From a virus (Duplodnaviria > Caudoviricetes), in IMG/VR virus record IMGVR_UViG_3300033068_001704, positions 96,001 to 160,000 of that record: a DNA stretch of 64,000 bases. The stretch is one strand, 5' to 3'. Made by a program: the position numbers and the translations under genes. Shown here one piece after another: positions 10,606-28,365 of this stretch (positions within the stretch are counted from its first letter, which is position 1; the number at the start of each line of letters is the position of its first letter). The notes under the pieces were generated by a model. The model was not told the DNA's origin and made no database searches. It was given only the letters and a program-made list of their open reading frames with translations.

Positions 10606-10623
10606 TGCACTCCCCCCTCACGA

Positions 10624-10905: not shown

Positions 10906-10913
10906 GCGCGACC

Positions 10914-11405
10914 TTACGCCTGCGACCCCGAGGGGGACATGTCGTCGATGAGCGAGTCGAAGTCGTGCCGGGAGTAGACGTAGGAGCCCCGCTTGCCACG
11001 ACGGGAGATCTTGCCGCTCTGCGTCATGCGGTACAGGGCGCTCTGGATGGACTTCGGCCGCGTGAAGGAGTCCTTCACGATGACACGCGCCATGATGTCG
11101 CCTTCCTCCACGGTGATGACGGAGGGGTTGCTGAAGATCTCTTCCACGACCTCGTGGGTGATGGCAGCCACGTTCATCTGACGGCCGCGGGTGAGGCTCT
11201 CCTGCGGGTCGAGGCCGACCGACTTGAGGATGGCAGCGAGACGGTCCGTATCCATCTCCACCTTCTTCAGCTCTGCTTCGATCCGTTCCCGCTCCTTGGT
11301 GAGATGCGTTCGCATCTCGGAAAGGGCTGCGTACCCGATCCTCGCATCGCGTAGGAACGCGTCGAAGTCGAACCGGCTCTCGATCTCTTCATTTTCGATG
11401 GGCAT
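10914..11405 (-). CDS. Coiled-coil plus winged-HTH DNA-binding protein
   Basis: Coiled N-terminal half; C-terminal KSIQSALYRMTQSGKISRRGKRGSYVY; start set to MPIEN. Confidence 0.6.
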   Translation of the reverse strand: MPIENEEIESRFDFDAFLRDARIGYAALSEMRTHLTKERERIEAELKKVEMDTDRLAAILKSVGLDPQESLTRGRQMNVAAITHEVVEEIFSNPSVITVEEGDIMARVIVKDSFTRPKSIQSALYRMTQSGKISRRGKRGSYVYSRHDFDSLIDDMSPSGSQA

Positions 11406-11412
11406 GCTTCTC

Positions 11413-11427
11413 TTACGCCGCGTGTAA
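11413..11427. promoter_or_regulatory. Back-to-back GTAA elements for divergent genes
   Basis: TTACgccgcgtGTAA, 7 and 8 nt from the two divergent start codons (11405 and 11436). Confidence 0.6.
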
Positions 11428-11435
11428 GGTCCCCT

Positions 11436-11891
11436 GTGAGACACATTTCACTTTCCCAGGTGGATCTTTCGTCACCCAGCCCCTCGTTCGTTGTGCCTGA
11501 GGATCCGGACGATCTGTTCACGGCCATCCTCTCGCACATCGAGGGGAAGTACCTGAACCAGAGGAACGATGAGAGAACCCGCTACGTGATGCGGGGGGCC
11601 ATCCGTGGGATGATCCAGCATGCCTGCCAGGCGTACGGGATCGACCGAGGGGGGCTGCTTGCTATCGGGGTCTCGGAGAGTCGGCAAGCCCCTCAGGCGC
11701 TCACGCTCACGCCCACCGTCGCGGGCGTCGAGTGGAAGTACCTCACCTTCGAGGTTCGGGAGATGGTGGACCGAACCCCCCATGGGACCCTGATCATCGC
11801 GAAGTACGATCGAGACCAGGGCTGGGGGAAGTCTCAGTTGGAGGCGGCGGTCGATCTGTTCGAGAGAAGAGCCGACCGCACCGGGGGCTAG
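11436..11891 (+). CDS. Hypothetical protein
   Basis: GTG start 8 nt after GTAA. Confidence 0.6.
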   Translation: MRHISLSQVDLSSPSPSFVVPEDPDDLFTAILSHIEGKYLNQRNDERTRYVMRGAIRGMIQHACQAYGIDRGGLLAIGVSESRQAPQALTLTPTVAGVEWKYLTFEVREMVDRTPHGTLIIAKYDRDQGWGKSQLEAAVDLFERRADRTGG

Positions 11892-11956
11892 AGAAAATCC
11901 CCCTGAGGGGGGTAAAAAGAACCTCTCCGCTCGTTCCTACTTCGGAGGGGTTCAAC

Positions 11957-12733
11957 ATGATCAGATCGTTTCTACTCGCGGCGCTCGTCGCCCTGGTTCC
12001 CGTTCAGGCCTTCGCTCAGGAGAGGCCGGTGGCCGAGGCCCAGCATCTCTACGAGCTGGGTGTGATCTCCTACGAGCGGCAGGAGTGGGCACGGTGTGCC
12101 GACTTCTTCGAGCGGAGCTTCACCCTGGTGTTCGCGCCTGAGCTGCTGTTCAACATCGGTCGCTGCCACGCGCGAGAGGGCGGGGCCACCGGTGAGATCG
12201 ATTCGCTTCAGCGGGCTATCTTGGCGTACGCCCGGTACCTCCGTGAGCCGGTGACGATGGAGCCGAGCGAGCGCGCTGAGGTCGAGGCGGAGGTTGCGCG
12301 GATCCGAGCCAGGGTGGCAGAGATCCGGGCCTCGGTGCTCCCCATCGAACGACAGACGGTTGTCCCGGTCGTGGTGGTGGAAGAGCCGCAGGTCGAAGCC
12401 CCGCTCGCCGAAGAGACTCGGGTCGAGACCTCCCCCGAGGTGTTCGCGGTGGAGGCCCCGACTTCGGCCGAGTTCGGGTTCTCAGGCACGGTGACTGGAG
12501 CTGCCCTCACAGGGGTCTCTCTCATCACGGCGATCATCCTGGGGGTCGTGGCTCAGGAACGCTACGAGACCCTCGCGGAGACGTGTGGTCGTTCCCCTGA
12601 GGGGTGCTCGGCTGGTCAGATCCAAGAGGTCGATTCTCTCGGGGTGGCTGCCAACGCGATGTTCGGGGTGAGCGGCGCGCTCGCGGCAGGGACCGGGGTC
12701 ATGTTCGGGTTGGAGGTCTCTGGATCGTTCTGA
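11957..12733 (+). CDS. Exported TPR protein with C-terminal membrane segments (myxobacterial-style)
   Basis: Signal peptide ending AFA; AQHLYELG..FERSF..PELLFNIGRC..AILAYARYL; two C-terminal hydrophobic helices separated by a Cys pair. Confidence 0.75.
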   Translation: MIRSFLLAALVALVPVQAFAQERPVAEAQHLYELGVISYERQEWARCADFFERSFTLVFAPELLFNIGRCHAREGGATGEIDSLQRAILAYARYLREPVTMEPSERAEVEAEVARIRARVAEIRASVLPIERQTVVPVVVVEEPQVEAPLAEETRVETSPEVFAVEAPTSAEFGFSGTVTGAALTGVSLITAIILGVVAQERYETLAETCGRSPEGCSAGQIQEVDSLGVAANAMFGVSGALAAGTGVMFGLEVSGSF

Positions 12734-12787
12734 GCTGGGTCCTCTCTGCCTTGGGTGGGTGTAACGACCCACACCCTGAAGGTAGAG

Positions 12788-15256: not shown

Positions 15257-15278
15257 CCTGATCCTTAGATCTCAGGTG

Positions 15279-15315
15279 GAAGGCCGGCAGGGAAACCTGT
15301 CGGCCTTTCGTGTTT
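15279..15315 (+). terminator. Intrinsic terminator
   Basis: AAGGCCGGCAGG-GAAA-CCTGTCGGCCTT followed by TCGTGTTT. Confidence 0.75.
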
Positions 15316-15331
15316 GGGCGTAAGAGGCTGC

Positions 15332-15667
15332 ATGAAGCTTCCGACGACGTTCCACGCTCTTGGGGCCCCCATCACCGTGGAAGAGCAGGATCTTCAGGGA
15401 CAGGGGCTAGGGTTCTGGGACGAGTCCACTCGAACGATCGTCATCGAGAAGAACCAGCCCGCGATGGGGAAGCTCATCACCCTCGTCCATGAGGCGATGC
15501 ACGTGGTTGAGACGATGATGATCGAGAACGGGGCAATCAAGCGTCGCGTCTCCCACGACTTCATCACCGGGAGTGCGTTCGCACTCGCCACGATCCTCGT
15601 CCACACTGGGGCGATCGAGGGTGTCACCCCGGAAGACTGGGCGGCATTCGTCAAGGAACAGGGCTGA
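15332..15667 (+). CDS. Small zincin-like (HExxH) protein
   Basis: G.W...RTIVIE..TLVHEAMH; starts 8 nt after GCGTAA. Confidence 0.75.
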   Translation: MKLPTTFHALGAPITVEEQDLQGQGLGFWDESTRTIVIEKNQPAMGKLITLVHEAMHVVETMMIENGAIKRRVSHDFITGSAFALATILVHTGAIEGVTPEDWAAFVKEQG

Positions 15668-15668
15668 T

Positions 15669-16379
15669 ATGCCTCGCAAGCCTCGCAAGAAGCCCACCCC
15701 GGCAGGTCTGAGCCCCTTGAAGATCCTCGAAGAGACCTTCCAGCTCGACTACTTCTACGATGACGGTGGGGATCCCGTGGCCATCCCTCACCGGTGGCAC
15801 CGAGGGGCAGAAGATCAGCGCCTGTGTGTCATCGCTGGGGAGAACGCGTGCGGGAAGTCGTTCTTCCGTCGTGTCGTCCAGGCGGTCCACGGCCACCTGA
15901 AAACGGAGCTGATCCACCTCTCCATGGAGGGCCGGAAGAGCCCCATGGCTGCGATGGTCTACGGTGACGAGGGGTGCCGAAGCACGGGCGAGAACAGCAT
16001 CAACACGGTTCTTGGGGCGATGAGCACTGCCAATTCCCGCGACAAGGACACGGCGATCTTCTGGGACGAGCCTGACATCGGGTTGAGCGACTCCTGGTGC
16101 GCTGGGGTTGGGGTTCGCATCCGCGAGTACGCGGAGAGCGCCCCCAAGCACGTTCGAGGGATGTACGTCGTCACCCACAACCGAACTCTGCTGAGGGAGC
16201 TGGCCTCTGTAGATCCTCACTTCGTCTGGCTCGGTGAGGAGTCCCAGGGAGTAGATCGCTCCATCCCCCTCTCGGAATGGGTCGAACTCCCGATCAAGCC
16301 GCGTTACGATCTGGAGGCCCTCAGGGATCTCTCCAGAGCGAGGTACCGCGCCCTCCAGGCGATTCTGAAGCGGGTCTAG
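15669..16379 (+). CDS. Small ABC-type ATPase
   Basis: GENACGKS (Walker A), STGE, IFWDEPDIGL (Walker B/D-loop), VVTHN (H-loop). Confidence 0.8.
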   Translation: MPRKPRKKPTPAGLSPLKILEETFQLDYFYDDGGDPVAIPHRWHRGAEDQRLCVIAGENACGKSFFRRVVQAVHGHLKTELIHLSMEGRKSPMAAMVYGDEGCRSTGENSINTVLGAMSTANSRDKDTAIFWDEPDIGLSDSWCAGVGVRIREYAESAPKHVRGMYVVTHNRTLLRELASVDPHFVWLGEESQGVDRSIPLSEWVELPIKPRYDLEALRDLSRARYRALQAILKRV

Positions 16380-16385
16380 GCGCCA

Positions 16386-16613
16386 ATGGATGACGGCAAC
16401 TCCGGGAACCTCACCGCGATCACGGATCTGAACAGGATGTCCGCGACGACGCTGATGAGCGTCGGTCGGCGTTGGGGAAAGTCGCTGCTCGTTTCCGCTA
16501 TGGCCGAGTACGAGATTTCTAGGGCGTACCCCCGTCCGGTGGGGAAGAACCGGGCAACGCGCCGGAAAGAAGCTGCCCAGGCCCGGCGCAAACTCCGTCC
16601 TGTGCGTTCGTAG
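16386..16613 (+). CDS. Hypothetical protein with isolated GRRWGKS motif
   Basis: 75 aa; P-loop-like motif and basic tail. Confidence 0.5.
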   Translation: MDDGNSGNLTAITDLNRMSATTLMSVGRRWGKSLLVSAMAEYEISRAYPRPVGKNRATRRKEAAQARRKLRPVRS

Positions 16614-16654
16614 GGCAAACTTTCGGTATGGATGTTCTATCCGAACCCCCCATT

Positions 16655-16759
16655 ATGTACGACGACCTAAGCTGGATGGAGATCTTCTGCCTAGCAGTTC
16701 TCCTTGGTGTCATGTGGGCCATCTCGGAGATGGAACAGCGAGGAAAGCGGACGAAGTAG
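16655..16759 (+). CDS. Small single-TM protein (34 aa, not in ORF track)
   Basis: MYDDLSWMEIFCLAVLLGVMWAISEMEQRGKRTK; 13 nt after TTCTATC. Confidence 0.45.
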   Translation: MYDDLSWMEIFCLAVLLGVMWAISEMEQRGKRTK

Positions 16760-16807
16760 TGTTTCGTGGCCGGTAGAGTCGCTCACCCTCAGGGTGGAGA
16801 AGACTGA

Positions 16808-17107
16808 ATGACCGACCAGATGAACACGGGTACGACCGCCGCTGACACGACCGAGAACGCCCTCAAGCTTTCCCCGGAGGAGCTGGGGCAGATGCTCCGC
16901 ATCCATCAGGAGGCTCAGCAGGTCACGGTCCAGATCGGGCAGTCCGAGATCCGCAAGGCCCGACTGCTGTCGGGACTCGGTGAGATCGAGGAGCGCGGCA
17001 TGCGCATGATGGGTGAGATCGGGAAGCGCCTCGGGATTCCGGAAGGCACGCGCTGGCAGGCCGGACCGGATGGCTCGGTGATTATCGAGTCAAGCCCCCA
17101 GAGATAG
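16808..17107 (+). CDS. Hypothetical coiled-coil protein
   Basis: GGAG SD; helical heptads. Confidence 0.7.
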   Translation: MTDQMNTGTTAADTTENALKLSPEELGQMLRIHQEAQQVTVQIGQSEIRKARLLSGLGEIEERGMRMMGEIGKRLGIPEGTRWQAGPDGSVIIESSPQR

Positions 17108-17141
17108 ACCCGAGGATCCTCCTCGGGTCTCGTGAGGTGCC

Positions 17142-18530
17142 ATGCCCCCGTGGGTCCCCCAGACGTACCCCCTGCCCCCGCAGAACGTGATGGTCGTGTC
17201 CCCTTTTTTGAGTGGGATGCTGGACATCCGGTGGGATGACCCTTCTCTGCTCGGGGGGAACTCGGCGTACAACGTCCTCGGGGTGAATGTCTACCGGTCC
17301 GATGCTTCGGATCGGGGCCCGTTTCGGAGGCTCAACTCATTCCCGGTGAGTGGGACGTTCTTCCGGGACTTCACGGACGTCTCCCTCGTTTCCCAGGAGG
17401 TCATCCCCTGGGAAACGGGGTGGCAGTCCCGTGGTGATGCCCCGAATGTGCGTCGGTGGACGCTCCGAACCAGGTACGCGATCCACAAGCCGAGGACTCA
17501 GGGGGTCTTCGCGAACTCTCCGGAGGACGTGATCGTCACGATCAACGGGGTCCCGGCGCGGATCGACATGGTTTTCGGGTCCTCGAACGAGATCACTCTC
17601 GGCGATGCTCCGGAGATCGATCCGAGGGACGACAGGTTCGCATTCGCCCCGCTTCCTACAGGTCCGAGTGATGTGGTCGTCGTTACGTACTACACGCTCC
17701 GGAACCTCGTCCATCCGGGCGTGGACAAGAAGTCGTTCTACCGGGTCACGACGGTGGCAGAGGCCGTTTCAGACAACGGTCCCACGCCCCCCGACCTGGT
17801 CGAGACGCCCATGAATGTGACGATTCCTGCGTCCGACATGGCCATCGAGCAGCTCGACTACATCTGGCGCGAGGCGGTCCGTCGAAACCTGTGGATCCTG
17901 GAGCAGGGCGGTGAGCGTGTGAAGCTCTTCGTCCAGAAGGTCTCTGGGATCCGATGTGCGTGCCCCACGGAAATCGACCCGCGGTCCAGGGAGTTCAACA
18001 AGCAGCCCTCGAACCGCTGTCACACCTGTTACGGGACAGGTTTCGTGGGTGGGTACGAGGGCCCTTACGACGTCATCATGGCCCCGGACGACGGGGACAA
18101 GAGGGTCACGCAGACGGCAACCGGGCGGCGGAAGGAACACACCTACGACGTGTGGATGAGCTTCACCCCGATCGTCTCTCAGCGGGACTTCGTCATCAAG
18201 CAGAACAACGATCGCTACTCGATCGGACCTGTTCGGCGCCCGACGAACCGAGGGAACGTGCTCCAGCAGCACTTCCAGATCGGGTACCTCGACTACGGGG
18301 ACATCCGCTACTCGGTTCCGATTGACGGGACGATCGCGTCTCCGAACCTGCCGTGGCCTCAGACCCGGTACACCTACCGCCCTCTCCGGGAGACCTACGA
18401 TGCTCGGACGGACGCTCCCTGGCCTACCGATCCCGATGCGGCTCTGCCGATGGCGACCGACAAGGACAACGTCCCGGGTCCGGTCCAGATTCGCTCGCGC
18501 ACAGGTGCTGGCGAGAACTCGAACTACTGA
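17142..18530 (+). CDS. Putative neck/head-closure protein with Fn3-like N-terminus and Zn finger
   Basis: PQNV..IRWD..GVNVYRS; RCAC...CHTCYGTGFVGGY; first gene of the virion cluster. Confidence 0.6.
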   Translation: MPPWVPQTYPLPPQNVMVVSPFLSGMLDIRWDDPSLLGGNSAYNVLGVNVYRSDASDRGPFRRLNSFPVSGTFFRDFTDVSLVSQEVIPWETGWQSRGDAPNVRRWTLRTRYAIHKPRTQGVFANSPEDVIVTINGVPARIDMVFGSSNEITLGDAPEIDPRDDRFAFAPLPTGPSDVVVVTYYTLRNLVHPGVDKKSFYRVTTVAEAVSDNGPTPPDLVETPMNVTIPASDMAIEQLDYIWREAVRRNLWILEQGGERVKLFVQKVSGIRCACPTEIDPRSREFNKQPSNRCHTCYGTGFVGGYEGPYDVIMAPDDGDKRVTQTATGRRKEHTYDVWMSFTPIVSQRDFVIKQNNDRYSIGPVRRPTNRGNVLQQHFQIGYLDYGDIRYSVPIDGTIASPNLPWPQTRYTYRPLRETYDARTDAPWPTDPDAALPMATDKDNVPGPVQIRSRTGAGENSNY

Positions 18531-18537
18531 GGTCTAG

Positions 18538-19038
18538 GTGAAGCAGACCCTGAAGCGTCGGTACGTATCCCCGCTGGTGAAGCGAACTCAGGTTCAGCTT
18601 GACCGGAGGGATCTCCAATTCTTCGGCCGGTGCCTCATCAAGTTCGTACGGGAGGAAGCCGAGAAGGACGCCGCGAAGATGGGCCAGCTCCCGACGGCCC
18701 CTGAGTTCTACAAGTCGTTCTCCTTTCGAGTGAAGGGGAATGGGATCGAAGTCATGTCGAGCTGGCCGTGGATCCGCGTATACACGGAGGGCACGAACGG
18801 TCCGTTCCGCATGAAGTGGCTGACCCGCCAAGAGGGGGTCAACGTCGTTCCTCTACGTGGGAAGTTCGGGGAGGTCGTCTTCCGGACGGCCCCGCTCACC
18901 ACAGACAAGGCGTGGATCCATCCCGGGATCGCTCGGCACACCTTCATTCAGCGTGCGTTCAAGCGCGCTCAGAAGTCCTGTGTGGAGCGGTTCCTCCTCA
19001 AGAACCTCGGACAGATCTTGGATGGTGCGCTCGGATGA
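18538..19038 (+). CDS. Putative neck/tail-completion protein (HK97 gp10-like)
   Basis: Basic; WIHPG..TFIQRA motif; position in cluster. Confidence 0.5.
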   Translation: MKQTLKRRYVSPLVKRTQVQLDRRDLQFFGRCLIKFVREEAEKDAAKMGQLPTAPEFYKSFSFRVKGNGIEVMSSWPWIRVYTEGTNGPFRMKWLTRQEGVNVVPLRGKFGEVVFRTAPLTTDKAWIHPGIARHTFIQRAFKRAQKSCVERFLLKNLGQILDGALG

Positions 19039-19673
19039 AAGAGGTAGAGATCGTTTGCCTGGGAGATTCGGCCCACATTCCGGACCTCGGGCTGAAGTTG
19101 AGGCGAGGGGCGAAGGTCGCGGCCACGCTCACGATGGTGAGTGGGTCTCGTGATCTTGCCGAGCTGAAGCGTCTCGGGGTGGTGGCGGTGACAGAGTTGA
19201 AGGCTCAGGCGATCCGTCGGGACGCCCCGGTCGCTCAAATCCCTTCCCCCAAGAACCCCCCGCCCCCCCTCCCTGCTACGCGGCCGATGGCTCCGACCGT
19301 CCCGGATGAAACGGCCCATCTTCTGAGGGGGATCTTGGAGGAGATCAAGGGTCTGCGAGCAGACCTCAAGGCGCGACCTGTTCAGGAGGCACGTCCGGAG
19401 ATCGACCTCGGGCCCATGGTCTCGGCAATCCAGAGTGCCCTCAACCGTCCCGGGGTGGACTCGGGGCGACGGGTGGAGACCCGCCACGAAGTTGAGGCAG
19501 GTGACCTGAGCCGGGAGGAGCGGTTCATCCCGAGCGGTATCGTCTCAGGAAACCTCAAATCTGAGATCGCAACTCAAGATTCTTCTTCGGAGAACTCGGG
19601 CCTCGATGAGGCTGAGGCGCTTCTGAAGCAGGTTCGACGAGGTGCGAAAGATGCGAAGAAGAAGGCCGGGTAA
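19035..19673 (+). CDS. Hypothetical protein with Pro-rich linker and coiled coil
   Basis: ATGA overlap start (MKEVEIV); PSPKNPPPPLP; LRGILEEIKGLRADLK. Confidence 0.7.
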   Translation: MKEVEIVCLGDSAHIPDLGLKLRRGAKVAATLTMVSGSRDLAELKRLGVVAVTELKAQAIRRDAPVAQIPSPKNPPPPLPATRPMAPTVPDETAHLLRGILEEIKGLRADLKARPVQEARPEIDLGPMVSAIQSALNRPGVDSGRRVETRHEVEAGDLSREERFIPSGIVSGNLKSEIATQDSSSENSGLDEAEALLKQVRRGAKDAKKKAG

Positions 19674-19680
19674 CCTCGAC

Positions 19681-20715
19681 ATGGCGAAGAGCGACAGCAC
19701 CGACGAGAAGCGCACCGACGAGAAGATGGGTGTGGGACTCGACGTTGGGACGATGAATCTGGTGTCGGCACGCCGCACCCCGAAGGGTGTCGAGACGCGT
19801 CGGATGCGGGATGCGTTCCTTGATCTTCCCCCCGAGTCGAAGAAGATGCTGAAGCTCTCGGGCGTCAGCTACATCGATCGGGGGGATGAGATCCTCATCC
19901 TCGGAGACGCGGCTCTCGACACCGCGAACATCTTCGGTCGCGAGGCACGCCGACCGCTCTCGGGTGGTCTCGTCTCCTCGTCCGAGGTGGATTCGTTGGA
20001 GGTGCTGGGCCTCCTCATCCGCAACGTGCTCGGGGAGCCCAAGGAGAAGGGGGAGCACTGCTACTTCTCGGTGCCGGCAGCCCCGATCGATCTCGTGGGT
20101 CGGGACGTGGTCTACCACCGAGGTATCTTCGAGCGCATCGTGTCGGAGTGCGGGTACACCCCGACTTCCAGCAACGAGGCGATGGCGATCATCTACTCGG
20201 AGGCGGCGAAGGACAACTTCTCCGGCATCGCGATCTCGTTCGGTTCGGGCATGAGCAACGTCGCGCTCGCCGTGAACACGATCGAGGGCCTGACGTTCTC
20301 GGTCGGCCGTGGGGGTGACTGGATCGACTCAGGGGCGGCGAAGTCCCTCGGGTCCACTCAGGCACGCATCTGCTCGATCAAGGAGAAGGGCATCGACCTG
20401 AACGCCCCGGTGGGTCGTGACCAGGAGGCGCTCGCCTTCTACTACAAGAACCTCATCGAGTACGTGCTCGACCAGATCGCGGCGCAGTTCAAGTCCATCG
20501 AGGGCAAGTTCGCTCTGCCCAAGGCCATCCCGATCATCATCTCGGGTGGCACCTCGAAGGCGGGTGGGTTCACCGAGTTCTTCACCTCGGTCTTCGAGAA
20601 GAAGCGGAAGAAGTTCCCGATCGACGTGAGTGAGATCCGCGCAGCCAGCGACCCGCTCAACGCAGTGGCGAACGGACTGCTCGTTCAGGCGCTTCAGGAG
20701 TACACCGACGACTGA
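19681..20715 (+). CDS. Actin-superfamily ATPase (MreB/MamK/Alp-like)
   Basis: GLDVGT (phosphate 1), NEAMA (connect 1), SFGSG (phosphate 2), GGDWID, ISGGTS (adenosine), DPLNAVANG (connect 2). Confidence 0.9.
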   Translation: MAKSDSTDEKRTDEKMGVGLDVGTMNLVSARRTPKGVETRRMRDAFLDLPPESKKMLKLSGVSYIDRGDEILILGDAALDTANIFGREARRPLSGGLVSSSEVDSLEVLGLLIRNVLGEPKEKGEHCYFSVPAAPIDLVGRDVVYHRGIFERIVSECGYTPTSSNEAMAIIYSEAAKDNFSGIAISFGSGMSNVALAVNTIEGLTFSVGRGGDWIDSGAAKSLGSTQARICSIKEKGIDLNAPVGRDQEALAFYYKNLIEYVLDQIAAQFKSIEGKFALPKAIPIIISGGTSKAGGFTEFFTSVFEKKRKKFPIDVSEIRAASDPLNAVANGLLVQALQEYTDD

Positions 20716-20765
20716 TGGGTGGGAGGTCTAGGCCTCCTGATCCACCTATCGATTCTCAGGTTGAG

Positions 20766-21887
20766 ATGTACTTCTTTCTGACGAGCGCGGTAAAAAACCG
20801 CTTCATCCTGGAGCTTCGCAAGTTCTGGTCGCTGAATCCTCGGTACCAGGACTTGATTGACAACATCCAGGGGAAGTACGGCTTCTCAGAGAGACCTCAG
20901 TACGGGATCATCGTCAAGGCGGGGTCGGCGTCCCGGGTCCAGTTCTCGGCCGACAATTTCCTGGGGACTGGCTTCAGCTACGCAGCTTTGGCCAAGATCC
21001 CGGGATCCCCTGGTTTGTCGGTCGAATGGGTCCGAGAGGACTCTATCGCCATCCGGAACAACGGTGGGTTCCCGTCCCCTGCGGGCGTGTACTACTGCGA
21101 GATGACGGCGGAAGACGAATTCCACGTTGACCCGCTGCTCGACGTCCACGACGAGAGGCTCACGCTCACCACCAGCACCGAGGGCACGCTCCAGCAGGTT
21201 CCTGTTGGTGGGAGCCTCCGACTGTTCGAGATCCCGAGCGGCCGTCTCCTGAGGCCTGAGACCGACTACACCGTGGGGTCTGACGGGGTGACGATCCACC
21301 TCGCCGCAGACGTGCTGCCTGGAACGTCGATTTCGGCGGACTATCGGTACGCCGGGGAGACAACGGGACCTTGGAAGGTCCTCCCGCAGTCTGGACTCAA
21401 CAAGCCCATCCCTGGTGTGGTGATGGTGTTCGGTCGTAGGTACCGCCTGGGGGACAAATGGGCGGTCATCATCAACCCGACGCGTGAGCCGGCCTACCTC
21501 CTCTACGGAGGAAAGTGGGAGCTTGGTCTCGATCTCGACATCATTTCGAGAGACCCTGAGGCACAGATGGAGATTGCCGATCAGACGGCGATGTACCTGT
21601 GGGCGAGCCTCCGTTCGAGTCTCGTGGACGAGGGGATCGACATCCAGGACGTGTCGATGACCGGTGAGTCGGAAGAGATCTACGACGAGACCGGAGACGA
21701 TTACTACTACAACGCCTCCCTCTCCATGACGGTCCAGACCGACTGGTTCCTCGCGACCCCGATTCTTCCGCGTCTCCTGGCGTACCAGGAGACGATCAAG
21801 AACCTGAGCGACGCGTCGTCCTTGGCCCCCTTCCAGGACCCTTACTTCAGCGCCGGCAAACTCACCTCTTTCGAGATGGTGAAGTGA
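20766..21887 (+). CDS. Putative tail terminator/completion protein with Ig-like insert
   Basis: Position before sheath; YPxIIV-like start and C-terminal LDIISRD..YNASLSMTV; start set to MYFFL. Confidence 0.5.
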   Translation: MYFFLTSAVKNRFILELRKFWSLNPRYQDLIDNIQGKYGFSERPQYGIIVKAGSASRVQFSADNFLGTGFSYAALAKIPGSPGLSVEWVREDSIAIRNNGGFPSPAGVYYCEMTAEDEFHVDPLLDVHDERLTLTTSTEGTLQQVPVGGSLRLFEIPSGRLLRPETDYTVGSDGVTIHLAADVLPGTSISADYRYAGETTGPWKVLPQSGLNKPIPGVVMVFGRRYRLGDKWAVIINPTREPAYLLYGGKWELGLDLDIISRDPEAQMEIADQTAMYLWASLRSSLVDEGIDIQDVSMTGESEEIYDETGDDYYYNASLSMTVQTDWFLATPILPRLLAYQETIKNLSDASSLAPFQDPYFSAGKLTSFEMVK

Positions 21888-21966
21888 CCGAGCCCTACGA
21901 AGCCGAATAGCGAACAGGGTTGATCGCTAGACCCTCTATATGACCGGGCTAGGGGCAGAGGCTCCT

Positions 21967-22437
21967 ATTCCGGTCTTTCGCTACCAGTGCTCGTCATGCG
22001 GGCTGAACTTCTCGGCTCGGGTCGCTTCGGCCACGAGTTCGGTGAAGTGCGGCTGTGGTGAAACGGTGGAGAGAGATCTCCCCCGTTCATTCTCCGTGAG
22101 CACCAAGGTGGCTGGAGACGGGATCTCGGCTCCCGCCACGGGGCTGTCGGGGCACGACTACGAGATTGACCGGATTGTTGGATCTGATGCCCAGACGAAG
22201 TGGGATCAGATCGCCGCCCGCCAGAAGGACAAGGTTCGGATGATCGAAGAGAGCGGAGCCACTGGCTTCGATCTCTCTCGGAATCCGGATGGTTCCTACC
22301 GAGTGATGAAGCCTGAGGAACGGGCTGCATCCGAACGGTCCCGCAACTTCCACTTCAAGATGCAAGACCGTCTTGAACAGGTAGTTCCGGCAGAGGTCCT
22401 CTACGGGCCCCGCAAAACTCCGCAGAAACAGGCCTAA
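21967..22437 (+). CDS. FmdB-like zinc-ribbon protein (possible ATT start; alternative ATG at 21940)
   Basis: (M)PVFRYQCSSCG..F...VKCGCG..VER matches the MPxYxYxCxxCG pattern. Confidence 0.75.
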   Translation: MPVFRYQCSSCGLNFSARVASATSSVKCGCGETVERDLPRSFSVSTKVAGDGISAPATGLSGHDYEIDRIVGSDAQTKWDQIAARQKDKVRMIEESGATGFDLSRNPDGSYRVMKPEERAASERSRNFHFKMQDRLEQVVPAEVLYGPRKTPQKQA

Positions 22438-22522
22438 CAACCTGTTTCTCTCCCGGCTCGCCTAGGGCGAACCGTGGTCAAGACCGACAGACATACGCAC
22501 GCATCTCCCGCGCTTTTCGTTT

Positions 22523-22544
22523 CCTCTCCGATAGCTCGGAGAGG
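22523..22544 (+). promoter_or_regulatory. Hairpin in the sheath gene leader
   Basis: CCTCTCCGA-TAGC-TCGGAGAGG, perfect 9-bp stem. Confidence 0.5.
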
Positions 22545-22579
22545 TTTGGAATTACCCCGTTCTCAGGAGCGCGCGAAAC

Positions 22580-25500
22580 ATGCCGAGTCTTCTCCGTGGA
22601 GGGTACGCCCCGCCGGGCGTCTACACCCAGACCTCTTTCGGCGTCCCGCCGTCCCCGACGCCGGTACCGCCCCGTATTCCCGTGTTCGTTGGCACGGGTG
22701 TCGAGATCCTCTCTCGATCGAACCTCCCGCTCGTTCGAGGTTCTTCCTCGACCATCGACCAGCAGGTCGTGGATGAAGACGAGGCGGGTCGCGCCGTCGT
22801 GAGTGTGTCCGGCAGTGGGCTGGTGACGCTCGGCGAGTTCGAGGGCACCCTCACTCGCTTCCAGGTCCGCAACTTCCCGATCGTCTCGGGGGCGGGCACT
22901 GGCACGGTCGCAACCGACGCCAGCGCGGTCTCGGTTCGCATCAACGGCCTCCCGGTCGTCGTGCTCGGTCTCGATGCCACCAAGGGCATCGTCGAGATCG
23001 CTCAGGCACCGTCGGCGAGCGACGTCGTGCGATGCACGTACTTCTTCGACCGCACCGACACCATCGCCACCGACGACCTGTCTGATCAGGTCACGGCAGA
23101 GGCAGCGGTCCTCAACGGCCTCGCGGGTCAGAGCTTCTCGTTCACCGCGGGTGTGAACGACGTGTTCCGCATCGCGGTGGACGGCCTCGCAGAGGTCGCG
23201 ATCGTTCTCCCCTCGTCCTCCCCTACGGTCTCGGCTGCGATCGTCGCGGCGACGCTGAGTGGAGCGGCGGGCATCGGGTCGCTCGTCGCCTCGACGTACG
23301 TGAACAACCTCGGGCTGGTGTGCCTTCGCCTGACTGCCGACAAGTCGATCCGCATCGGCACCGGCACGGCGAACACGACCCTCGGGTTCGTGCCGAACGC
23401 GCAGACCTCGCGCAACCGCGTGTTCTACACGTTCAACGGTCCGATCGTGGACGGATCGGGGGGTGGTGTCACGACCACCAACCCGTCGGATGTCGTCGTC
23501 CTCGTGGACAACGTCCAGGTCATCCCGACCTCGGTCAACGGGTCGAACCGGTCGGTGACGCTCCCCTACGCCCCGGCGATGGGCTCGAAGGTCACGGTCC
23601 GCTACTCCCACAACTCGTGGCAGGACACGTTCGACTACCTCGCGAACATCGGCGTGACGCGCATCACGCGCACCGCGCTCACTCCCGAGGGCTCGACGGC
23701 CGGCACGTTCATCCAGGGCGTCTCGTACGTCCTGAAGGACGACGCGATCGTCTGGGGAACGTCGGCGCTCGTCTCGGCCGGCACCCACACCGAGGGCGGG
23801 GAGATCTTCGGGACTTCCCAGATCTCGGCGATGCTGGTGGACAACCAGGCCTTCCTCGCGCCGTGCTCCAGCACGACTGACACCAGTGGCTCGGTCTCGA
23901 TCGAGAGCCGGACGGTCTTCCAGCTCCCGTTCCAGCCGACGACCGGCAACGGCCGTGGCAACCCGCTCGGGTCGGACTACCTGACGATCTCGAACGGTCG
24001 GATGGACCTTCCGACCACCCGCCCGGACCTGATCACGGCGTACTGGGGCTTCGGCGTCCAGGATGCACTCACCCGCGGCCCGGTGACGGTCCTCAAGGTG
24101 GACAGCGACACGTCGCGGATCACGCTCGCATCGAGCGTTCCGGATGGCGCCGAGGTCTTCGCGACCTTCTACTACAACACGCTCGTCGATCAGGCGAACG
24201 TCGGGTCCAGCTCGGGCTACGAGATCTCCTCGCTGCTCGCTGGCCCCGGTGGCATGGGCACCTTCCAGATCGCGGACGGCGAGGGCAACTCGCTCTACGG
24301 GGTCTCGCTCACCGGCAAGGGCTCGGACCTCGCGACGGTGGACGTGGTCTTCCCGAGCGGTTCGGAGTTCTTCCCCGACGCGCGCATCGAGGGCGGTGAG
24401 GCGGTCGAGGAGACCGTCACGGTCGAGTTCGCAACGTCGGATGCGACCCCCGCGCGGTTCGTGAACCTCGGGCCGGCTCCGTACTACACGATCGACAACA
24501 CGTCGGACCGCCTCCGGGTGACGTTCGATGCGTCGGCTTCGCAGACCGGCGTCGCAGGTGGTGTCGATCTCTCGTCCCCGACGGGTGCGACGCGCGCAGG
24601 TGCCTTCGCTCACCTTCTCGGTGAAGAGATCGCGTACGAGGCGGACTCGGGCCAGACGACGTTCGACCTCACCTCGGGTGTGGACGACACCGTCAACTTC
24701 GTGGTGGACGGCGTGCCGCTCTCGGCTTCGACCGGCACCGTGTCCAGCGCAACGGCCGCGACCTTCGTCGCAGCGATCAACGCAGAGGCGATGGAAGCGG
24801 GCAACGAGCCCCGCTACGACGCGGCGGGTGTCTTCACCGGCATCACCATCGCGGTGAACGAGTACGACCAGCTCACGATGCACTACACCGGTTCGACCGG
24901 GGGTGCCTCGGGCAACCAGGCGATCACGATCGCTCCGGGAACCTACGCCTCGGTCGGTTCGCTCGTCACGCAGATCAACACGCAGCTCTCGACGATCAAC
25001 GGCCCGGTCGGTGGTCTCGGCGGTGAAGTGACCTGCTCGGCGCTCTCGTCGGGTCGGCTGCGCTTCTCGCTCATGACGGAGCGCGCAAGCAGCGTCCTGA
25101 CCTTCGTGTCGAACCCGCTCAACGCCACGACGGCCACGATCGGTGGGAAGGTCTACACCTTCCAGACCGTGCTGACCGACGTGGACGGCAACGTCCTGAT
25201 CGGGGCGGCGGCAACCAACACGCTCGACAACCTGATCGCGGCGATCACGCTCGGCGCCGGTGCTGGCACCACCTACGCGACATCGACGACCCTTCACCCC
25301 ACCGTCACGGCGGCAGCGGGTGCGGGCGACACGATGCGGGCAACCGCGAAGTCCGCCGGGACGGCAGGCAACGCCATCACCACCACGACGACCGTGGCGG
25401 GTGCAACCTGGACGGGCGCGACGCTCGCCGGGGCGGACGAGGCCGGCTACCTGGAGTTCATCACGAACGCCAGCGCGGCCCGTGACTTCGCCATCCTCGC

Positions 25501-27886
25501 AGGCATCGACACCGACTCGGCCGCGGGCGGAAACCAGTCGAAGCTCTACCAGGGCCCGATCGCTCGCCGCTTCACGGTGGCAACGACCGGTGGGCGCCTC
25601 GCCTACGACCGCATCCTCCTCCGCAACCGCCTCTTCCCGGGTGGAAGCTCGGTCGCACACGAGAACGTGCTCTCGCAGGCTGGGATCACCCTCCAGGGTG
25701 GTACCGGCGCCGCGAAGGCAGGTCTCCTCGGTGGTGTGACCGGAGAGGCTGTGTTCGGGGCGAACGTGAAGGCTCCCTCGATCTTCGCGCAGACCGGATG
25801 GTCGAGCGGACAGGTGGCGGCGCTGACCTTCGGGGATGCACGCGACAGCCAGCCGCTGGTCACGTTCTACGACGGGTCCGACCCGTCGAACCCGGCGAAC
25901 GATCTCCTGACCTTCACGGCAGGCGGGTCCCTCGTCACAACGGTCTTCACGGCTTCGAGCAGCGGGACGGACACCGCGCTCGGCCCGGTCACCGAGGCTG
26001 ACTCGGTCCTCGGGCAGATCAACGCGGCGATCGTCGCGGCGGGTCTCTCGGCGGTCGTGAGTGTGCGCCAGGAGGGTGCGGGCTTCCGCATCGTCGGTGG
26101 TGGCGTCGGCCCGACCGGCAACCTGACCATCGGGGCGGGTTCGGCGAACGACACCCTCGGTCTGTCCGAGGATGACACGGCGGCACCGGTGCCGGTCTCG
26201 GCGAAGCAGATGGCGAGCGCCCTCATGGGTCACGCTCAGGCGCCTGGTTCGTTCTCGACGGCGATGCTCGACTACGACACGCCCGACGCGAGCTACTTCG
26301 CGGGGCGAGCGCTCGCATGGGTCGCGACTGATTCGACTGGCAACGAGTTCCTCTACCTCCAGAGCCAGACGCTCGGGACCTCGTCCAGCATCGACTTCCA
26401 GGATGCGACCTCGAACAACGCCTTCGTGACCGGGACCCAGCTCCTGATCACGGCGGATGACGGGGCATCGGGAGAGGCCACCACGGACGGCTTCTTCGTC
26501 GTCAGCTCGAACCCGAGCGCGGGCTCCGGCTCGGCGAACACCTCGGTGTTCAACGCCGGTGTGGGTCAGGACGGCGTCGTCGGCCAGACCTACATGGACG
26601 ACGTCTCGGGCCTGACGTTCACCATCCTGCCCCGTGATGGCGGGATCCCGTACCCGACGGGTGCGAACGCGACCCTGTCGTTCCGCGTCTCGAAGACCTT
26701 CCTGACCGATGGCAACATCCCGACCCTCGCGGTCCCGGGCATCGAGCTGACGGTGACGAACACCTCGGGCGTCGCGACGGGTGACACCGCCTTCGTCGAG
26801 ACCTTCAAGAAGTCCGGCGCGGAGCCGAGCATCGGGCAGGTCTACTACGTCTCGTACGACTACGAGAAGCAGAACTTCTCCCCGAAGCTCTTCTCGAAGC
26901 TGTCGGACGTCGTCGCCGAGTACGGGCCGGTGAGCACGGACAACCCGCTCTCGCTCGCGGCCTACATCGCCTTCCTGAACGGGTCGAGCGTCATCGGTAC
27001 CTACCAGGTGCGGAAGGCGACCAACTCGTCCCAGGCGAGCGCGCAGGCGTACCTCGACGCGCTGGTCGAGCTGGAGGGCGCCTCGCTCCCCGGCAACATC
27101 AACCCGACGGTGCTCGCCCTGCTGACCCCGGCGACTGCGGACCTCGCGAAGCAGACCGCGATCCACTGCGACATCCAGTCGTCCATCCGGTACCGCGCAG
27201 AGCGGACGGCGGTCTTCGGATACGCATCGGGCACGCAGCCGGCGCAGGCGGGTCTCATCTCGCAGGCGGCAGGTTCGACGCGCGTCCGGTTCGTCTACCC
27301 GGACATCGCGACCCTCACCCTCACCGACGTCCTCGGGAACTCCCGTGAGTCCCTCGTGGACGGTCGGTACATCGCGGCGGCGGTCGCTGCGAACACGACG
27401 GCTCCGAGCATCGACTCGGCAACCCCCTGGACGGGTCGCCTCCTGTCGGGCTTCACGTCCCTCGGACGTCGGCTCGATGCGGTGGCAGCCAACCAGGTCG
27501 CGGCTCGCGGCGTGACCGTGGTCGAGGATCGCCTGCCCTTCCTTCGGATCCGGCACGGCCTCACCTCGGACATGACCAACGTCCTGACCAAGACGCCGAC
27601 GGTCATCCAGATCGCCGACGACATGCAGCGTCGGGCGCGTGCGGTTCTCGACCCCTTCATCGGTGTCAAGTTCCTCCCGCAGATCCTCGGTCAGATCGAG
27701 GGTCAGCTCAGCGAGATGTTCAAGCGCGCTGTGCAGGAGCAGATCATCACCTCCTTCACGGGCATCAGCGTCGCTGTCGATCCCGAGGATCCGACCGCGG
27801 TTCTGGTCGAGGCGTACTACGTCCCGGTCTTCCCGCTGCTCTACATCCAGCTCTCGTTCCGAGTCTCGGCCCAGTCGAGCTTCTGA
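22580..27886 (+). CDS. Contractile tail sheath protein with very large insertion
   Basis: N-terminal YAPPGVYTQ, P..PVFVG; C-terminal YG..NPLSLAA, IRHGLT, V...Y.PVFPLLYI; lies upstream of the tube. Confidence 0.92.
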   Translation: MPSLLRGGYAPPGVYTQTSFGVPPSPTPVPPRIPVFVGTGVEILSRSNLPLVRGSSSTIDQQVVDEDEAGRAVVSVSGSGLVTLGEFEGTLTRFQVRNFPIVSGAGTGTVATDASAVSVRINGLPVVVLGLDATKGIVEIAQAPSASDVVRCTYFFDRTDTIATDDLSDQVTAEAAVLNGLAGQSFSFTAGVNDVFRIAVDGLAEVAIVLPSSSPTVSAAIVAATLSGAAGIGSLVASTYVNNLGLVCLRLTADKSIRIGTGTANTTLGFVPNAQTSRNRVFYTFNGPIVDGSGGGVTTTNPSDVVVLVDNVQVIPTSVNGSNRSVTLPYAPAMGSKVTVRYSHNSWQDTFDYLANIGVTRITRTALTPEGSTAGTFIQGVSYVLKDDAIVWGTSALVSAGTHTEGGEIFGTSQISAMLVDNQAFLAPCSSTTDTSGSVSIESRTVFQLPFQPTTGNGRGNPLGSDYLTISNGRMDLPTTRPDLITAYWGFGVQDALTRGPVTVLKVDSDTSRITLASSVPDGAEVFATFYYNTLVDQANVGSSSGYEISSLLAGPGGMGTFQIADGEGNSLYGVSLTGKGSDLATVDVVFPSGSEFFPDARIEGGEAVEETVTVEFATSDATPARFVNLGPAPYYTIDNTSDRLRVTFDASASQTGVAGGVDLSSPTGATRAGAFAHLLGEEIAYEADSGQTTFDLTSGVDDTVNFVVDGVPLSASTGTVSSATAATFVAAINAEAMEAGNEPRYDAAGVFTGITIAVNEYDQLTMHYTGSTGGASGNQAITIAPGTYASVGSLVTQINTQLSTINGPVGGLGGEVTCSALSSGRLRFSLMTERASSVLTFVSNPLNATTATIGGKVYTFQTVLTDVDGNVLIGAAATNTLDNLIAAITLGAGAGTTYATSTTLHPTVTAAAGAGDTMRATAKSAGTAGNAITTTTTVAGATWTGATLAGADEAGYLEFITNASAARDFAILAGIDTDSAAGGNQSKLYQGPIARRFTVATTGGRLAYDRILLRNRLFPGGSSVAHENVLSQAGITLQGGTGAAKAGLLGGVTGEAVFGANVKAPSIFAQTGWSSGQVAALTFGDARDSQPLVTFYDGSDPSNPANDLLTFTAGGSLVTTVFTASSSGTDTALGPVTEADSVLGQINAAIVAAGLSAVVSVRQEGAGFRIVGGGVGPTGNLTIGAGSANDTLGLSEDDTAAPVPVSAKQMASALMGHAQAPGSFSTAMLDYDTPDASYFAGRALAWVATDSTGNEFLYLQSQTLGTSSSIDFQDATSNNAFVTGTQLLITADDGASGEATTDGFFVVSSNPSAGSGSANTSVFNAGVGQDGVVGQTYMDDVSGLTFTILPRDGGIPYPTGANATLSFRVSKTFLTDGNIPTLAVPGIELTVTNTSGVATGDTAFVETFKKSGAEPSIGQVYYVSYDYEKQNFSPKLFSKLSDVVAEYGPVSTDNPLSLAAYIAFLNGSSVIGTYQVRKATNSSQASAQAYLDALVELEGASLPGNINPTVLALLTPATADLAKQTAIHCDIQSSIRYRAERTAVFGYASGTQPAQAGLISQAAGSTRVRFVYPDIATLTLTDVLGNSRESLVDGRYIAAAVAANTTAPSIDSATPWTGRLLSGFTSLGRRLDAVAANQVAARGVTVVEDRLPFLRIRHGLTSDMTNVLTKTPTVIQIADDMQRRARAVLDPFIGVKFLPQILGQIEGQLSEMFKRAVQEQIITSFTGISVAVDPEDPTAVLVEAYYVPVFPLLYIQLSFRVSAQSSF

Positions 27887-27926
27887 TCTGAGCTGATAGC
27901 TCACCCGCGAGCGCGGGAGGAGTTCG

Positions 27927-27962
27927 GAGCCGCTCACGGAAACGTGGGCGGCTCTTTTCTTC
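27927..27962 (+). terminator. Intrinsic terminator after the sheath gene
   Basis: GAGCCGCTCACG-GAAA-CGTGGGCGGCTC-TTTTCTT. Confidence 0.85.
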
Positions 27963-27983
27963 TATATGGATGTGATTCGTGAG

Positions 27984-28322: not shown

Positions 28323-28365
28323 GAAAATCGGGCCCTCACTCGATTCCCTATGAAAGGCGGTAGCC

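What the first reader, a model, noticed from the sequence alone, without database searches (positions are those of the whole stretch)
19035..20715. Actin-like ATPase embedded in the neck/tail-completion genes, with a candidate adaptor
Seen: all actin-fold motifs are present, with phosphate 2 reading SFGSG instead of DxGxG. The gene lies between neck and tail-terminator genes, has its own GTAA element (19670), and follows a Pro-rich/coiled-coil ORF. Established: phage cytoskeletal proteins such as PhuZ tubulin and CGP3 AlpC move DNA or capsids. Inference: an actin filament linked to virion assembly or capsid trafficking rather than ParM-like segregation, since no centromere-like repeat array is visible nearby.
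Basis: partly seen in the sequence, partly recalled or inferred. Interest (0 to 1): 0.8.

Follow-up and report, generated by a model that had tools for sequence, protein, structure and literature searches.

The report
Huge-phage actin gene with adaptor partner
A giant uncultured bacteriophage carries its own strongly conserved actin-like gene and a partner gene between its neck and tail-terminator genes, so it probably builds actin filaments late in infection; related phages have repeatedly lost the pair, so it is a helper and not a required virion part.

Summary
The window is part of a 222-kb IMG/VR phage record. Gene 19681-20715 matches Pfam Volactin (PF25216) end to end (E 3e-76). The closest solved relatives by profile are MamK, BeeR and MreB. 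The odd phosphate-2 motif SFGSG is the family norm. Relatives carry inteins at three or more points inside that loop, which argues that it works.

The 390-aa product folds as a tail terminator (Z 12-14). The 166-aa product best matches a SaPI1 neck chain (Z 9.3).

The 212-aa upstream ORF is a real partner. In 55 of 56 actin-bearing relatives it lies directly upstream. Nine related loci lack the actin, including one complete 536-kb genome with no volactin gene. Five of these keep only the partner's N-terminal domain. The partner's C-terminal half and the actin are therefore lost together, about seven times on the terminator tree.

A second huge-phage clade has the same actin family in a different gene context.

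Filament formation, partner binding and the cargo are all inferred.

This scan has already followed up the same module in other genomes (11 such notes listed). I found no paper describing it.

The parts
18538..19038 (+). 166-aa neck (head-tail joining or tail-completion type) protein. Its TGA stop overlaps the partner's ATG (ATGA).
   Evidence: AF2 pLDDT 76. VIA-wide best match is SaPI1 neck chain 9mu2_P, Z 9.3, rmsd 3.7, 95 aa; the next hit is Z 7.2. ESM Atlas lead to HK97-gp10_like clusters, score 0.95. Foldseek found nothing. Overlap seen.
19035..19673 (+). 212-aa partner (candidate adaptor), pI 9.1
   Evidence: Directly upstream of the actin in 55 of 56 actin-bearing loci, full length in 53. 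Conserved architecture. No Pfam match.
19035..19220 (+). Partner N-terminal domain (aa 1-62)
   Evidence: It is the only part kept in 5 actin-less relatives (profile positions 1-65 to 1-95, E 1e-10 to 4e-19).
19221..19310 (+). Partner Pro-rich variable linker (aa 63-92)
   Evidence: Alignment; coordinates.
19311..19373 (+). Partner conserved helix (LLxxLxxEIxGLRxDL), coiled-coil-like
   Evidence: Conserved. Weak resemblance to the Lpp coiled coil, E 0.056.
19518..19544 (+). Partner F-I-P-S short motif
   Evidence: F164, I165 and P166 are invariant in A5. Absent from the homologues in actin-less loci.
19599..19670 (+). Partner C-terminal amphipathic basic helix (GLDxAxxALKxxRR...)
   Evidence: Conserved. 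Absent from the homologues in actin-less loci.
19681..20715 (+). Volactin-family actin-fold ATPase, 344 aa (the ORF opens at GTG 19642)
   Evidence: PF25216 E 3.1e-76. Profile against PDB: MamK 4.8e-14, BeeR 1e-9, MreB 2e-7. It is 69-88% identical across relatives, the most conserved gene of the block. One copy per genome.
20236..20250 (+). Phosphate-2 loop SFGSG
   Evidence: Family consensus is ISFGAGMxNV. Inteins sit at three or more points in this loop in 12 of 150 representatives and in L016.
20766..21887 (+). Tail terminator (gpU or gateway type) with an inserted beta domain. The ORF opens at 20715.
   Evidence: AF2 pLDDT 74.5. Foldseek 7.4e-8 to the phage 812 neck. VIA Z 13.9 (8q01_M), 13.4 (9c39_F), 13.2 (8fvh_M), 12.2 (lambda gpU 3fz2).
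21940..22437 (+). 165-aa zinc-ribbon protein, conserved in the block
   Evidence: Zn_ribbon_8 E 1.5e-4, below the cut-off. Syntenic in all relatives.
22580..27886 (+). 1768-aa probable tail sheath with large insertions
   Evidence: Phage_sheath_1C at the extreme C-terminus in 3 of 7 family members, best E 2.8e-5; the window copy scores 0.064. This assignment is weak.
27926..27955 (+). The one long, GC-rich terminator-like hairpin of the block (13 pairs, 9 G-C)
   Evidence: No promoter-like site was found; the other five terminator-like hits between 15000 and 29500 are short (5-8 pairs), and six hits in all equals chance expectation.

Best explanation
This is an accessory two-gene cytoskeletal module of a clade of huge phages. 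It sits inside the late neck-to-tail gene block.

Gene 19681-20715 encodes a Volactin-family actin, related to MamK, BeeR and MreB. It probably binds ATP and polymerises.

The 212-aa gene just upstream probably encodes its adaptor:
- Its N-terminal domain belongs to the neck gene set and persists in relatives without actin.
- Its C-terminal half (short helix, F-I-P-S motif, terminal amphipathic helix) occurs only where the actin occurs. It probably docks on the filament, as the ParR tail does on ParM.

The filaments would then hold or move a virion intermediate (filled heads, tails, or their joining site) in the infected cell. This would raise assembly efficiency without being required for it.

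What is shown: family membership, gene order, flank identities, co-occurrence and repeated joint loss. What is inferred: polymerisation, partner binding, late timing and the cargo.
For: - Family: PF25216 full length, E 3e-76. The nearest solved relatives are all filament formers: MamK 4.8e-14, BeeR 1e-9, MreB 2e-7, FtsA 1e-6 (BeeR paper). Haloferax volactin forms dynamic filaments in vivo (PMC10869688).
- Constraint: the actin is the best-conserved gene of the block. Median identity is 70%, against 48% for the terminator, 35% for the neck gene and 30% for the partner.
- Inteins sit at three or more points in the phosphate-2 loop.
- Context: tail terminator Z 12-14; neck protein Z 9.3; sheath-like C-terminus. 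Stop and start overlap or lie 7 nt apart. No promoter-like site, and only short chance-level terminator-like hits, before the long hairpin at 27926.
- Linkage: 60 of 69 terminator-sampled loci have the actin upstream.
- Partner: present in 55 of 56 actin loci, with no N-only forms. In 9 actin-less loci, five keep only the N-domain and four have nothing. The actin-less loci are scattered on the terminator tree, about 7 changes.
- No Pfam tubulin match in five such genomes. No repeat array nearby.
Against: - No experiment or complex model supports polymerisation or partner binding. Both structure-prediction jobs went to the flanking genes.
- The module is dispensable. A complete 536-kb relative with the same neck, terminator and sheath genes has no volactin gene.
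- A second huge-phage clade (112 or more contigs) has the same actin family next to glycosyltransferase-like and PKD genes. It has no detectable homologue of this partner, terminator or 259-aa protein.
- Related Volactin proteins of unknown origin (one from a MAG-catalogue contig) are fused to ParB-HTH or HU-like domains, which points to DNA as cargo.
- The phosphate-2 Asp is Ser, so ATP turnover may be unusual.
- The terminator tree is a quick FastTree with a midpoint root, and mosaicism could inflate the count of losses.
Confidence: 0.45

Rival explanations
1. This is a ParMRC- or AlpAC-like DNA positioning system. The partner binds phage DNA through its basic N-terminal domain, and the actin filament moves or anchors replicating or packaging genomes. 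The position among neck genes would then be incidental.
For: The gene order is adaptor next to actin, and the partner is basic (pI 9.1). Volactin-family members are fused to ParB-HTH (P0152, P0165) and to an HU-like N-terminus (P0237, judged by eye). AlpC/AlpA of prophage CGP3 works this way (PMC5539076, abstract).
Against: No repeat array lies within 10-30 kb of the window. The partner has no match to any DNA-binding family. The partner N-domain stays at the neck position in phages with no actin. The module lies in a structural gene block far from replication genes. ParM itself was not among the profile hits.
Confidence: 0.2
2. This is a host-cell remodelling factor. The phage actin changes the shape, size or division of the infected cell, or competes with host MreB, as volactin influences cell shape in Haloferax.
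For: Volactin is a cell-shape factor (PMC10869688). The protein is related to MreB and MamK. The module is dispensable and often lost, as auxiliary host-takeover genes are. The clade-2 context is not structural.
Against: A takeover gene would be expected among early genes, not tightly coupled between neck and terminator. The dedicated partner with a neck-module N-domain is not explained.
Confidence: 0.15
3. This is a non-polymerising actin-fold ATPase acting as an assembly chaperone for neck or tail proteins, in the manner of Hsp70 or EutJ. The disordered partner would be its client or co-chaperone.
For: It lies in the structural block. The partner is largely disordered with short motifs. Phosphate 2 has Ser for Asp. 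There is a weak profile hit to EutJ, E 0.0056.
Against: The best profile hits are filament formers, and no Hsp70 appeared at E up to 1. Membership of the family of filament-forming volactin is full length. The very high conservation of the whole surface (69-88%) is typical of polymers.
Confidence: 0.1
4. This is a virion-borne protein. The actin, the partner or both are packaged or attached at the neck and act at the next infection.
For: The genes are encoded among virion genes. The partner N-domain belongs to the neck gene set.
Against: Neither protein carries the portable tag motifs (LAHxNP, RVAS) that other notes on this genome describe on tagged cargo proteins (notes). There is no precedent. 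The module is lost without loss of the virion genes.
Confidence: 0.05

Closest known systems
Volactin (VolA, HVO_2015) of Haloferax volcanii; Pfam PF25216
   Same: Same Pfam family, matched end to end above the gathering score. Actin fold with all five motifs. Volactin forms dynamic filaments in vivo (PMC10869688).
   Different: This copy is encoded by a phage, in a neck-tail gene block, with a phage-only partner. Volactin is a chromosomal, apparently essential cell-shape factor of an archaeon. Its own phosphate-2 residues were not checked here.
MamK (PDB 5jyg, 5ljv) and BeeR (PDB 8r2n, PMC11929497)
   Same: They are the closest solved relatives by profile (E 4.8e-14 and 1e-9). Both are ATP-dependent filament formers. 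MamK positions an organelle through adaptor proteins (own knowledge).
   Different: Sequence similarity is low and there is no single-sequence hit. MamK has VDIGAG where this family has ISFGAG. The cargo and the partners differ.
AlpC/AlpA of Corynebacterium prophage CGP3, and ParM/ParR
   Same: An actin-like protein encoded on a phage or plasmid, with an adjacent adaptor gene. The proposed mode is an adaptor tail docking on the filament.
   Different: Those adaptors bind DNA sites (alpS, parC). Here no repeats and no DNA-binding fold were found, the partner N-domain belongs to the neck gene set, and ParM was not among the profile hits.
PhuZ tubulin of nucleus-forming jumbo phages
   Same: It is a phage-encoded cytoskeletal polymer. 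It centres the phage nucleus and delivers capsids (own knowledge; reviews PMC7950403 and PMC8314001). I recall it as helpful rather than strictly essential, but did not check this.
   Different: PhuZ has the tubulin fold and uses GTP. No Pfam tubulin match was found in five of these actin-bearing genomes.

Membership tests
Volactin (Pfam PF25216) | Full-length profile match above the curated cut-off (35 bits) | tested here: met
   257.4 bits, E 3.1e-76, profile 1-321 of 321. The same result came from the genome search.
Volactin (Pfam PF25216) | Actin-fold nucleotide-binding motifs (phosphate 1, connect 1, phosphate 2, adenosine, connect 2) | tested here: met
   All five were located. Phosphate 2 has Ser for Asp, as in at least 90% of 81 family representatives.
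Volactin (Pfam PF25216) | Forms dynamic filaments | not testable with these tools
   Shown only for the Haloferax protein (PMC10869688).
MreB/Mbl (Pfam PF06723) | Profile match above the cut-off | tested here: not met
   No PF06723 hit for the window protein at E up to 0.1. MreB chains appear only at 2e-7 with the family profile.
Type II partition (ParMRC) or AlpAC | Centromere-like repeat array next to the operon | tested here: not met
   TRF on window 10000-30000 found only two trivial repeats of about two copies each.
Type II partition (ParMRC) or AlpAC | Adaptor with a DNA-binding fold (RHH or other) | tested here: inconclusive
   No Pfam or PDB sequence match for the partner. No structure model was made.
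Type II partition (ParMRC) or AlpAC | Actin-like ATPase with an adjacent adaptor gene | tested here: met
   Partner directly upstream in 55 of 56 loci.
PhuZ/TubZ phage tubulins | Tubulin/FtsZ fold | tested here: not met
   The protein has the actin fold. There is no PF00091 match in five related genomes.
Tail terminator (lambda gpU or gateway type), for the 390-aa neighbour | gpU-like fold | tested here: met
   VIA Z 12-14 to seven neck or terminator chains, including lambda gpU 3fz2 at Z 12.2. Foldseek 7e-8.
HK97 gp10-like neck or tail-completion protein, for the 166-aa neighbour | Fold match to a solved neck component | tested here: inconclusive
   Best VIA-wide hit is 9mu2_P (SaPI1 neck), Z 9.3, about 2 above the next hit. 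Foldseek found nothing. ESM Atlas gives a lead only.

The most novel reading that the evidence does not exclude
Huge phages run a virus-encoded actin machine for virion morphogenesis. A neck-anchored adaptor couples filled heads, or the head-tail joining site, to phage actin filaments. The filaments gather or transport these very large particles in the host cell. This would be an actin counterpart of the PhuZ tubulin system, evolved separately and repeatedly discarded.
Probability: 0.25. Interest if true: 0.85.

Novelty: new variant of a known kind. Interest (0 to 1): 0.68.

Why it matters
The phage cytoskeletal proteins described so far are mainly tubulins (PhuZ, TubZ) and a few actin-like DNA movers (AlpC, ParM on plasmid-prophages). 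This is an actin of the volactin, MamK and BeeR lineage. It is kept at 60-88% identity in at least two large clades of 300-600-kb phages, which here include over a hundred IMG/VR contigs. In this clade it is wired to the neck genes through a bipartite partner.

If the filaments and the adaptor link are real, giant phages would solve the problem of organising very large particles with actin as well as with tubulin. The natural actin-less sister phages offer a ready comparison.

The module also gives the little-studied volactin family a second biological setting and a candidate binding partner.

Tried and rejected
- A single-sequence search of the PDB with the actin found nothing relevant. Only the family profile reached MamK, BeeR and MreB.
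- Profile searches of the PDB with the terminator, neck, 259-aa and sheath-C alignments found nothing useful.
- PHROGs gave no function for the actin, the partner or the flanking genes.
- Foldseek found nothing for the 166-aa model.
- The search for related loci with the 81-sequence alignment failed for lack of a conserved stretch. The single-protein scan of genome contigs returned one MAG contig only.
The genomic contexts of the ParB-HTH fusions and of most representatives therefore stayed unknown. The listing of cluster members gave no names.
- One metagenome locus for P0165 was fetched but not annotated.
- I could not fetch Haloferax VolA, MamK, ParM or AlpC sequences. The tree has only an MreB outgroup with half coverage and weak deep nodes, so no origin is claimed.
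- BLAST found no similarity between the N-terminal extensions of fused family members and the window's partner or neck proteins.
- I rejected the idea that the GTAA at 19670 is a conserved element of the actin gene itself.
- A by-eye resemblance of the partner N-domain to AbrB/SpoVT-type domains got no support from Pfam. I do not claim it.
Full report
WHAT THE WINDOW IS

The window is bases 96001-160000 of a 222-kb linear IMG/VR virus record that CheckV rates about 50% complete. GC is 61-68% throughout. Genes run almost entirely on the + strand across the region.

THE GENE ITSELF

The ORF 19642-20715 matches Pfam Volactin (PF25216) at E 3.1e-76 over profile positions 1-321 of 321. There is no other significant family. 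The likely start is ATG 19681, because relatives also begin MAK... a few residues before the G-L-D-V-G-T motif. That gives 344 aa, pI 5.3.

All five actin-fold motifs are present, at the window coordinates listed under parts.

A single-sequence search of the PDB found nothing. A profile of 81 diverse family representatives hit, in order:
- MamK, 4.8e-14
- the three-stranded verrucomicrobial actin BeeR (8r2n), 1e-9
- MreB, 2e-7
- FtsA, 1e-6

ParM and Hsp70 were not among the hits. The BeeR paper describes that family as the closest relative of MamK (PMC11929497). Haloferax volactin forms dynamic filaments in vivo (PMC10869688).

THE ODD PHOSPHATE-2 MOTIF

In the 81-sequence alignment, S186, G188 and G190 are at least 90% conserved, and the consensus reads ISFGAGMxNV. 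In the MamK alignment this lies opposite VDIGAGTTD.

Twelve of the 150 representative clusters, and relative L016, carry an intein in this ten-residue loop. One of them has Intein_splicing plus HNH by Pfam. There are at least three insertion points:
- after IS
- after GAGM
- after GxGMxN

Each intein opens with Cys; in the four whose C-terminal junction was displayed (L016, P0154, P0178, P0251) it ends His-Asn before a +1 Cys. From general knowledge, inteins gather at functionally critical nucleotide-binding motifs. I read this as indirect evidence that the loop works.

THE FLANKS

The 390-aa product was modelled from a 13-sequence alignment (pLDDT 74.5). It matches tail terminators:
- Foldseek 7.4e-8 to the phage 812 neck
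- VIA Z 13.9 (8q01_M), 13.4 (Sf14), 13.2 (E217 gateway) and 12.2 (lambda gpU 3fz2)

It has an extra beta domain at about residues 141-212. Its conserved start is probably ATG 20766.

The 166-aa product (pLDDT 76) had no Foldseek match. Its best VIA-wide match is a SaPI1 neck chain (9mu2_P, Z 9.3, rmsd 3.7, 95 residues), about 2 Z above the next hit. The ESM Atlas points to HK97-gp10-like clusters. I call it a probable neck protein.

The 1768-aa product has weak Phage_sheath_1C matches at its extreme C-terminus. Three of 7 family members match, best E 2.8e-5, and the window copy scores 0.064.

A 1623-aa protein further on has a muramidase domain and a weak match to a tail-protein family (phrog_52).

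The 166-aa stop overlaps the partner start (ATGA). The partner stop lies 7 nt before the actin ATG.

Between 15000 and 29500 no sigma-70-like site was found. Six terminator-like hits were listed, which equals chance expectation; the only long, GC-rich hairpin is at 27926-27955, after the sheath-like gene. One late transcription unit is a reasonable inference, but it is not shown.

RELATIVES AND LINKAGE

The GenBank phage collection holds two matches, both unannotated huge phages:
- LR745208, 485 kb, 70% identity over the whole protein (74% over residues 16-341)
- LR756511, 595 kb, 32% identity

Fourteen IMG/VR loci and LR745208 keep this order: 99 aa, 462 aa, 166 aa, partner, actin, terminator, Zn-ribbon protein, sheath-like protein, 259 aa. 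Four of them lack the 462-aa gene.

To test linkage from the other side, I searched with the terminator alignment. Of 69 loci with enough upstream sequence, 60 have the actin upstream on the same strand. GC ranges from 42% to 70%. Median identities are actin 70%, terminator 48%, neck 35% and partner 30%. The actin is the most constrained gene of the block.

The big protein collections hold 1863 homologues at E up to 1e-5 and 1068 clusters at 50% identity. Each phage genome checked has one copy. No Pfam tubulin match was found in five of these genomes.

THE PARTNER

The 212-aa ORF has a conserved plan:
- an N-terminal domain of about 62 residues
- a variable Pro-rich linker
- a short helix resembling the Lpp coiled coil (E 0.056)
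- an invariant F-I-P motif
- an acidic, Ser-rich stretch
- a C-terminal amphipathic basic helix

It has no Pfam or PDB sequence match.

In 56 actin-bearing loci, 55 have it directly upstream. Fifty-three are full length and none is N-terminal only.

THE ACTIN-LESS RELATIVES

In nine of the 69 loci the neck gene runs into the terminator with no actin. The gap is 65 to about 1600 nt.

One of these nine lies in a 536-kb record rated 100% complete. That record has no volactin gene by PF25216 or by my own profile. The same search finds the gene in every actin-bearing genome tried.

Five of the nine keep a 131-181-aa gene at the same place. It matches only the partner's N-terminal domain (profile positions 1-65 to 1-95, E 1e-10 to 4e-19). 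It lacks the helix, the F-I-P-S motif and the terminal helix.

On a tree of the terminators the nine are scattered among actin-bearing loci. This needs about seven changes. The tree is a FastTree with a midpoint root, and mosaicism could inflate the count.

I draw two conclusions:
- The module is dispensable for building this kind of virion.
- The partner's C-terminal half and the actin come and go together, while its N-domain belongs to the neck gene set.

This is the best evidence available here for an adaptor. It remains indirect.

A SECOND CLADE AND THE WIDER FAMILY

The LR756511-type actin occurs on at least 112 IMG/VR contigs of up to 533 kb, with GC 34-57%. It is again the most conserved gene locally (median 63%, against 32-46% for neighbours).

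Its conserved upstream neighbours are:
- PKD-domain proteins
- an MptE-like protein
- a 334-aa protein that looks like a family-9 glycosyltransferase; this is a by-eye call that I did not test

These genomes have no detectable homologue of the partner, the terminator or the 259-aa protein of clade 1.

In a tree rooted on an MreB, each clade is monophyletic (support 0.98 and 1.0). They are not sisters, and the deep nodes are weak.

Other representatives carry:
- N-terminal ParB-HTH domains (P0152, P0165)
- an HU-like N-terminus (P0237, judged by eye)
- long acidic or coiled-coil extensions
- tandem actin domains

P0165 comes from a 247-kb contig in a MAG catalogue. These fusions keep a DNA-cargo reading alive for the family at large.

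THE GTAA ELEMENT

GTAA at 19670-19673 contains the TAA stop of the partner gene.

Across the 222-kb genome, 25 of 206 called genes have GTAA in the 25 nt before their start. The background is 1.2% of 25-nt windows. A separate search found 31 sites where GTAA is followed within 20 nt by an in-frame start codon; their spacing peaks at 7-9 nt and they are usually preceded by GC.

It is not conserved in front of the actin gene in nine relatives, whose partner genes end in TGA, TAG or TAA at varying distances. It says nothing firm about a separate promoter for the actin.

READING

Most likely (0.45) this is an accessory, late-expressed actin filament system. Its adaptor ties it to the neck module, and it helps organise head-tail assembly or particle positioning.

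The rivals are DNA positioning (0.2), host-cell remodelling (0.15), a non-polymerising chaperone (0.1) and a virion-borne role (0.05).

LITERATURE AND EARLIER NOTES

Seven full-text searches found no description of an actin homologue in huge phages. Neither did a term search of the huge-phage paper (PMC7162821) or of a jumbo-phage review. The library is incomplete, so this does not prove novelty.

This scan has already followed up the same module in other genomes, with the same reading; 11 such notes were listed.

New in this report, as far as those short notes show:
- the inteins in the phosphate-2 loop
- the actin-less relatives with N-domain-only partners
- the repeated joint loss
- the restriction of the partner to one clade

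Noticed in passing
L016:10001-12400; proteins P0121, P0123, P0133, P0154, P0163, P0169, P0178, P0191, P0217, P0229, P0233, P0251: Inteins (some with an HNH endonuclease) interrupt the actin gene at three or more different points inside the phosphate-2 loop in related phages. I know of no report of inteins in an actin-family protein.
   Followed up: partly
whole 222-kb genome; in the window e.g. 6783, 11424, 15320, 19670, 57464, 63410: The motif (G)GC-GTAA followed 7-9 nt later by a start codon recurs at 31 sites. GTAA lies in the 25 nt before 25 of 206 called genes, against 1.2% of background 25-nt windows. In 8 of those 25 the TAA is an upstream gene's stop. Its function (translation or leaderless transcription signal) is unknown.
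   Followed up: partly
L006:3851-5171, L013:10982-12983, L015:11015-11836: Extra genes are inserted between the actin and the terminator in some relatives: 250 aa, 508 aa with repeated zinc-ribbon-like Cys motifs, and 269 aa. By eye they look like homing-endonuclease-type genes. They were not scanned.
   Followed up: no
L003:4500-13020 and loci L019-L098: A second huge-phage clade (GC 34-57%, contigs up to 533 kb) keeps a 32%-identical volactin-family actin. It lies after PKD-domain, MptE-like and GT9-like genes, with a primase nearby on the other strand.
   Followed up: partly
proteins P0152, P0165, P0158, P0162, P0182 (ParB-HTH type), P0237 (HU-like), P0126, P0136, P0138 (tandem actin), P0159 (Wzz/BY-kinase): Volactin-family proteins of unknown, partly MAG, origin are fused to DNA-binding or other domains.
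   Followed up: partly
window 19697-19725: A 15-nt direct duplication (1.9 copies) lies inside the variable N-terminal extension of the actin gene and encodes a repeated T-D-E-K stretch.
   Followed up: no
window 12755-15256 and 15573-16379: An 833-aa vWA-domain protein is conserved upstream of the block in 8 of 16 relatives checked (55-64% identity over nearly its full length; two more loci hold its C-terminal half at the locus edge). It is followed by a small zincin-like ORF and a 268-aa ORF with no family match.
   Followed up: no
window 37000-41871: A 1623-aa protein has an N-acetylmuramidase domain (E 1e-6) and a weak tail-protein match. It is probably a tail lysin or tape-measure-type protein.
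   Followed up: no
L018 (PBLX01000019.1, MAG Legionellales bacterium, 19-kb contig): The only hit in 185,579 species genomes is a short contig of a Legionellales MAG, carrying the actin at 75% identity. It is more likely a binned phage contig than a host clue.
   Followed up: no
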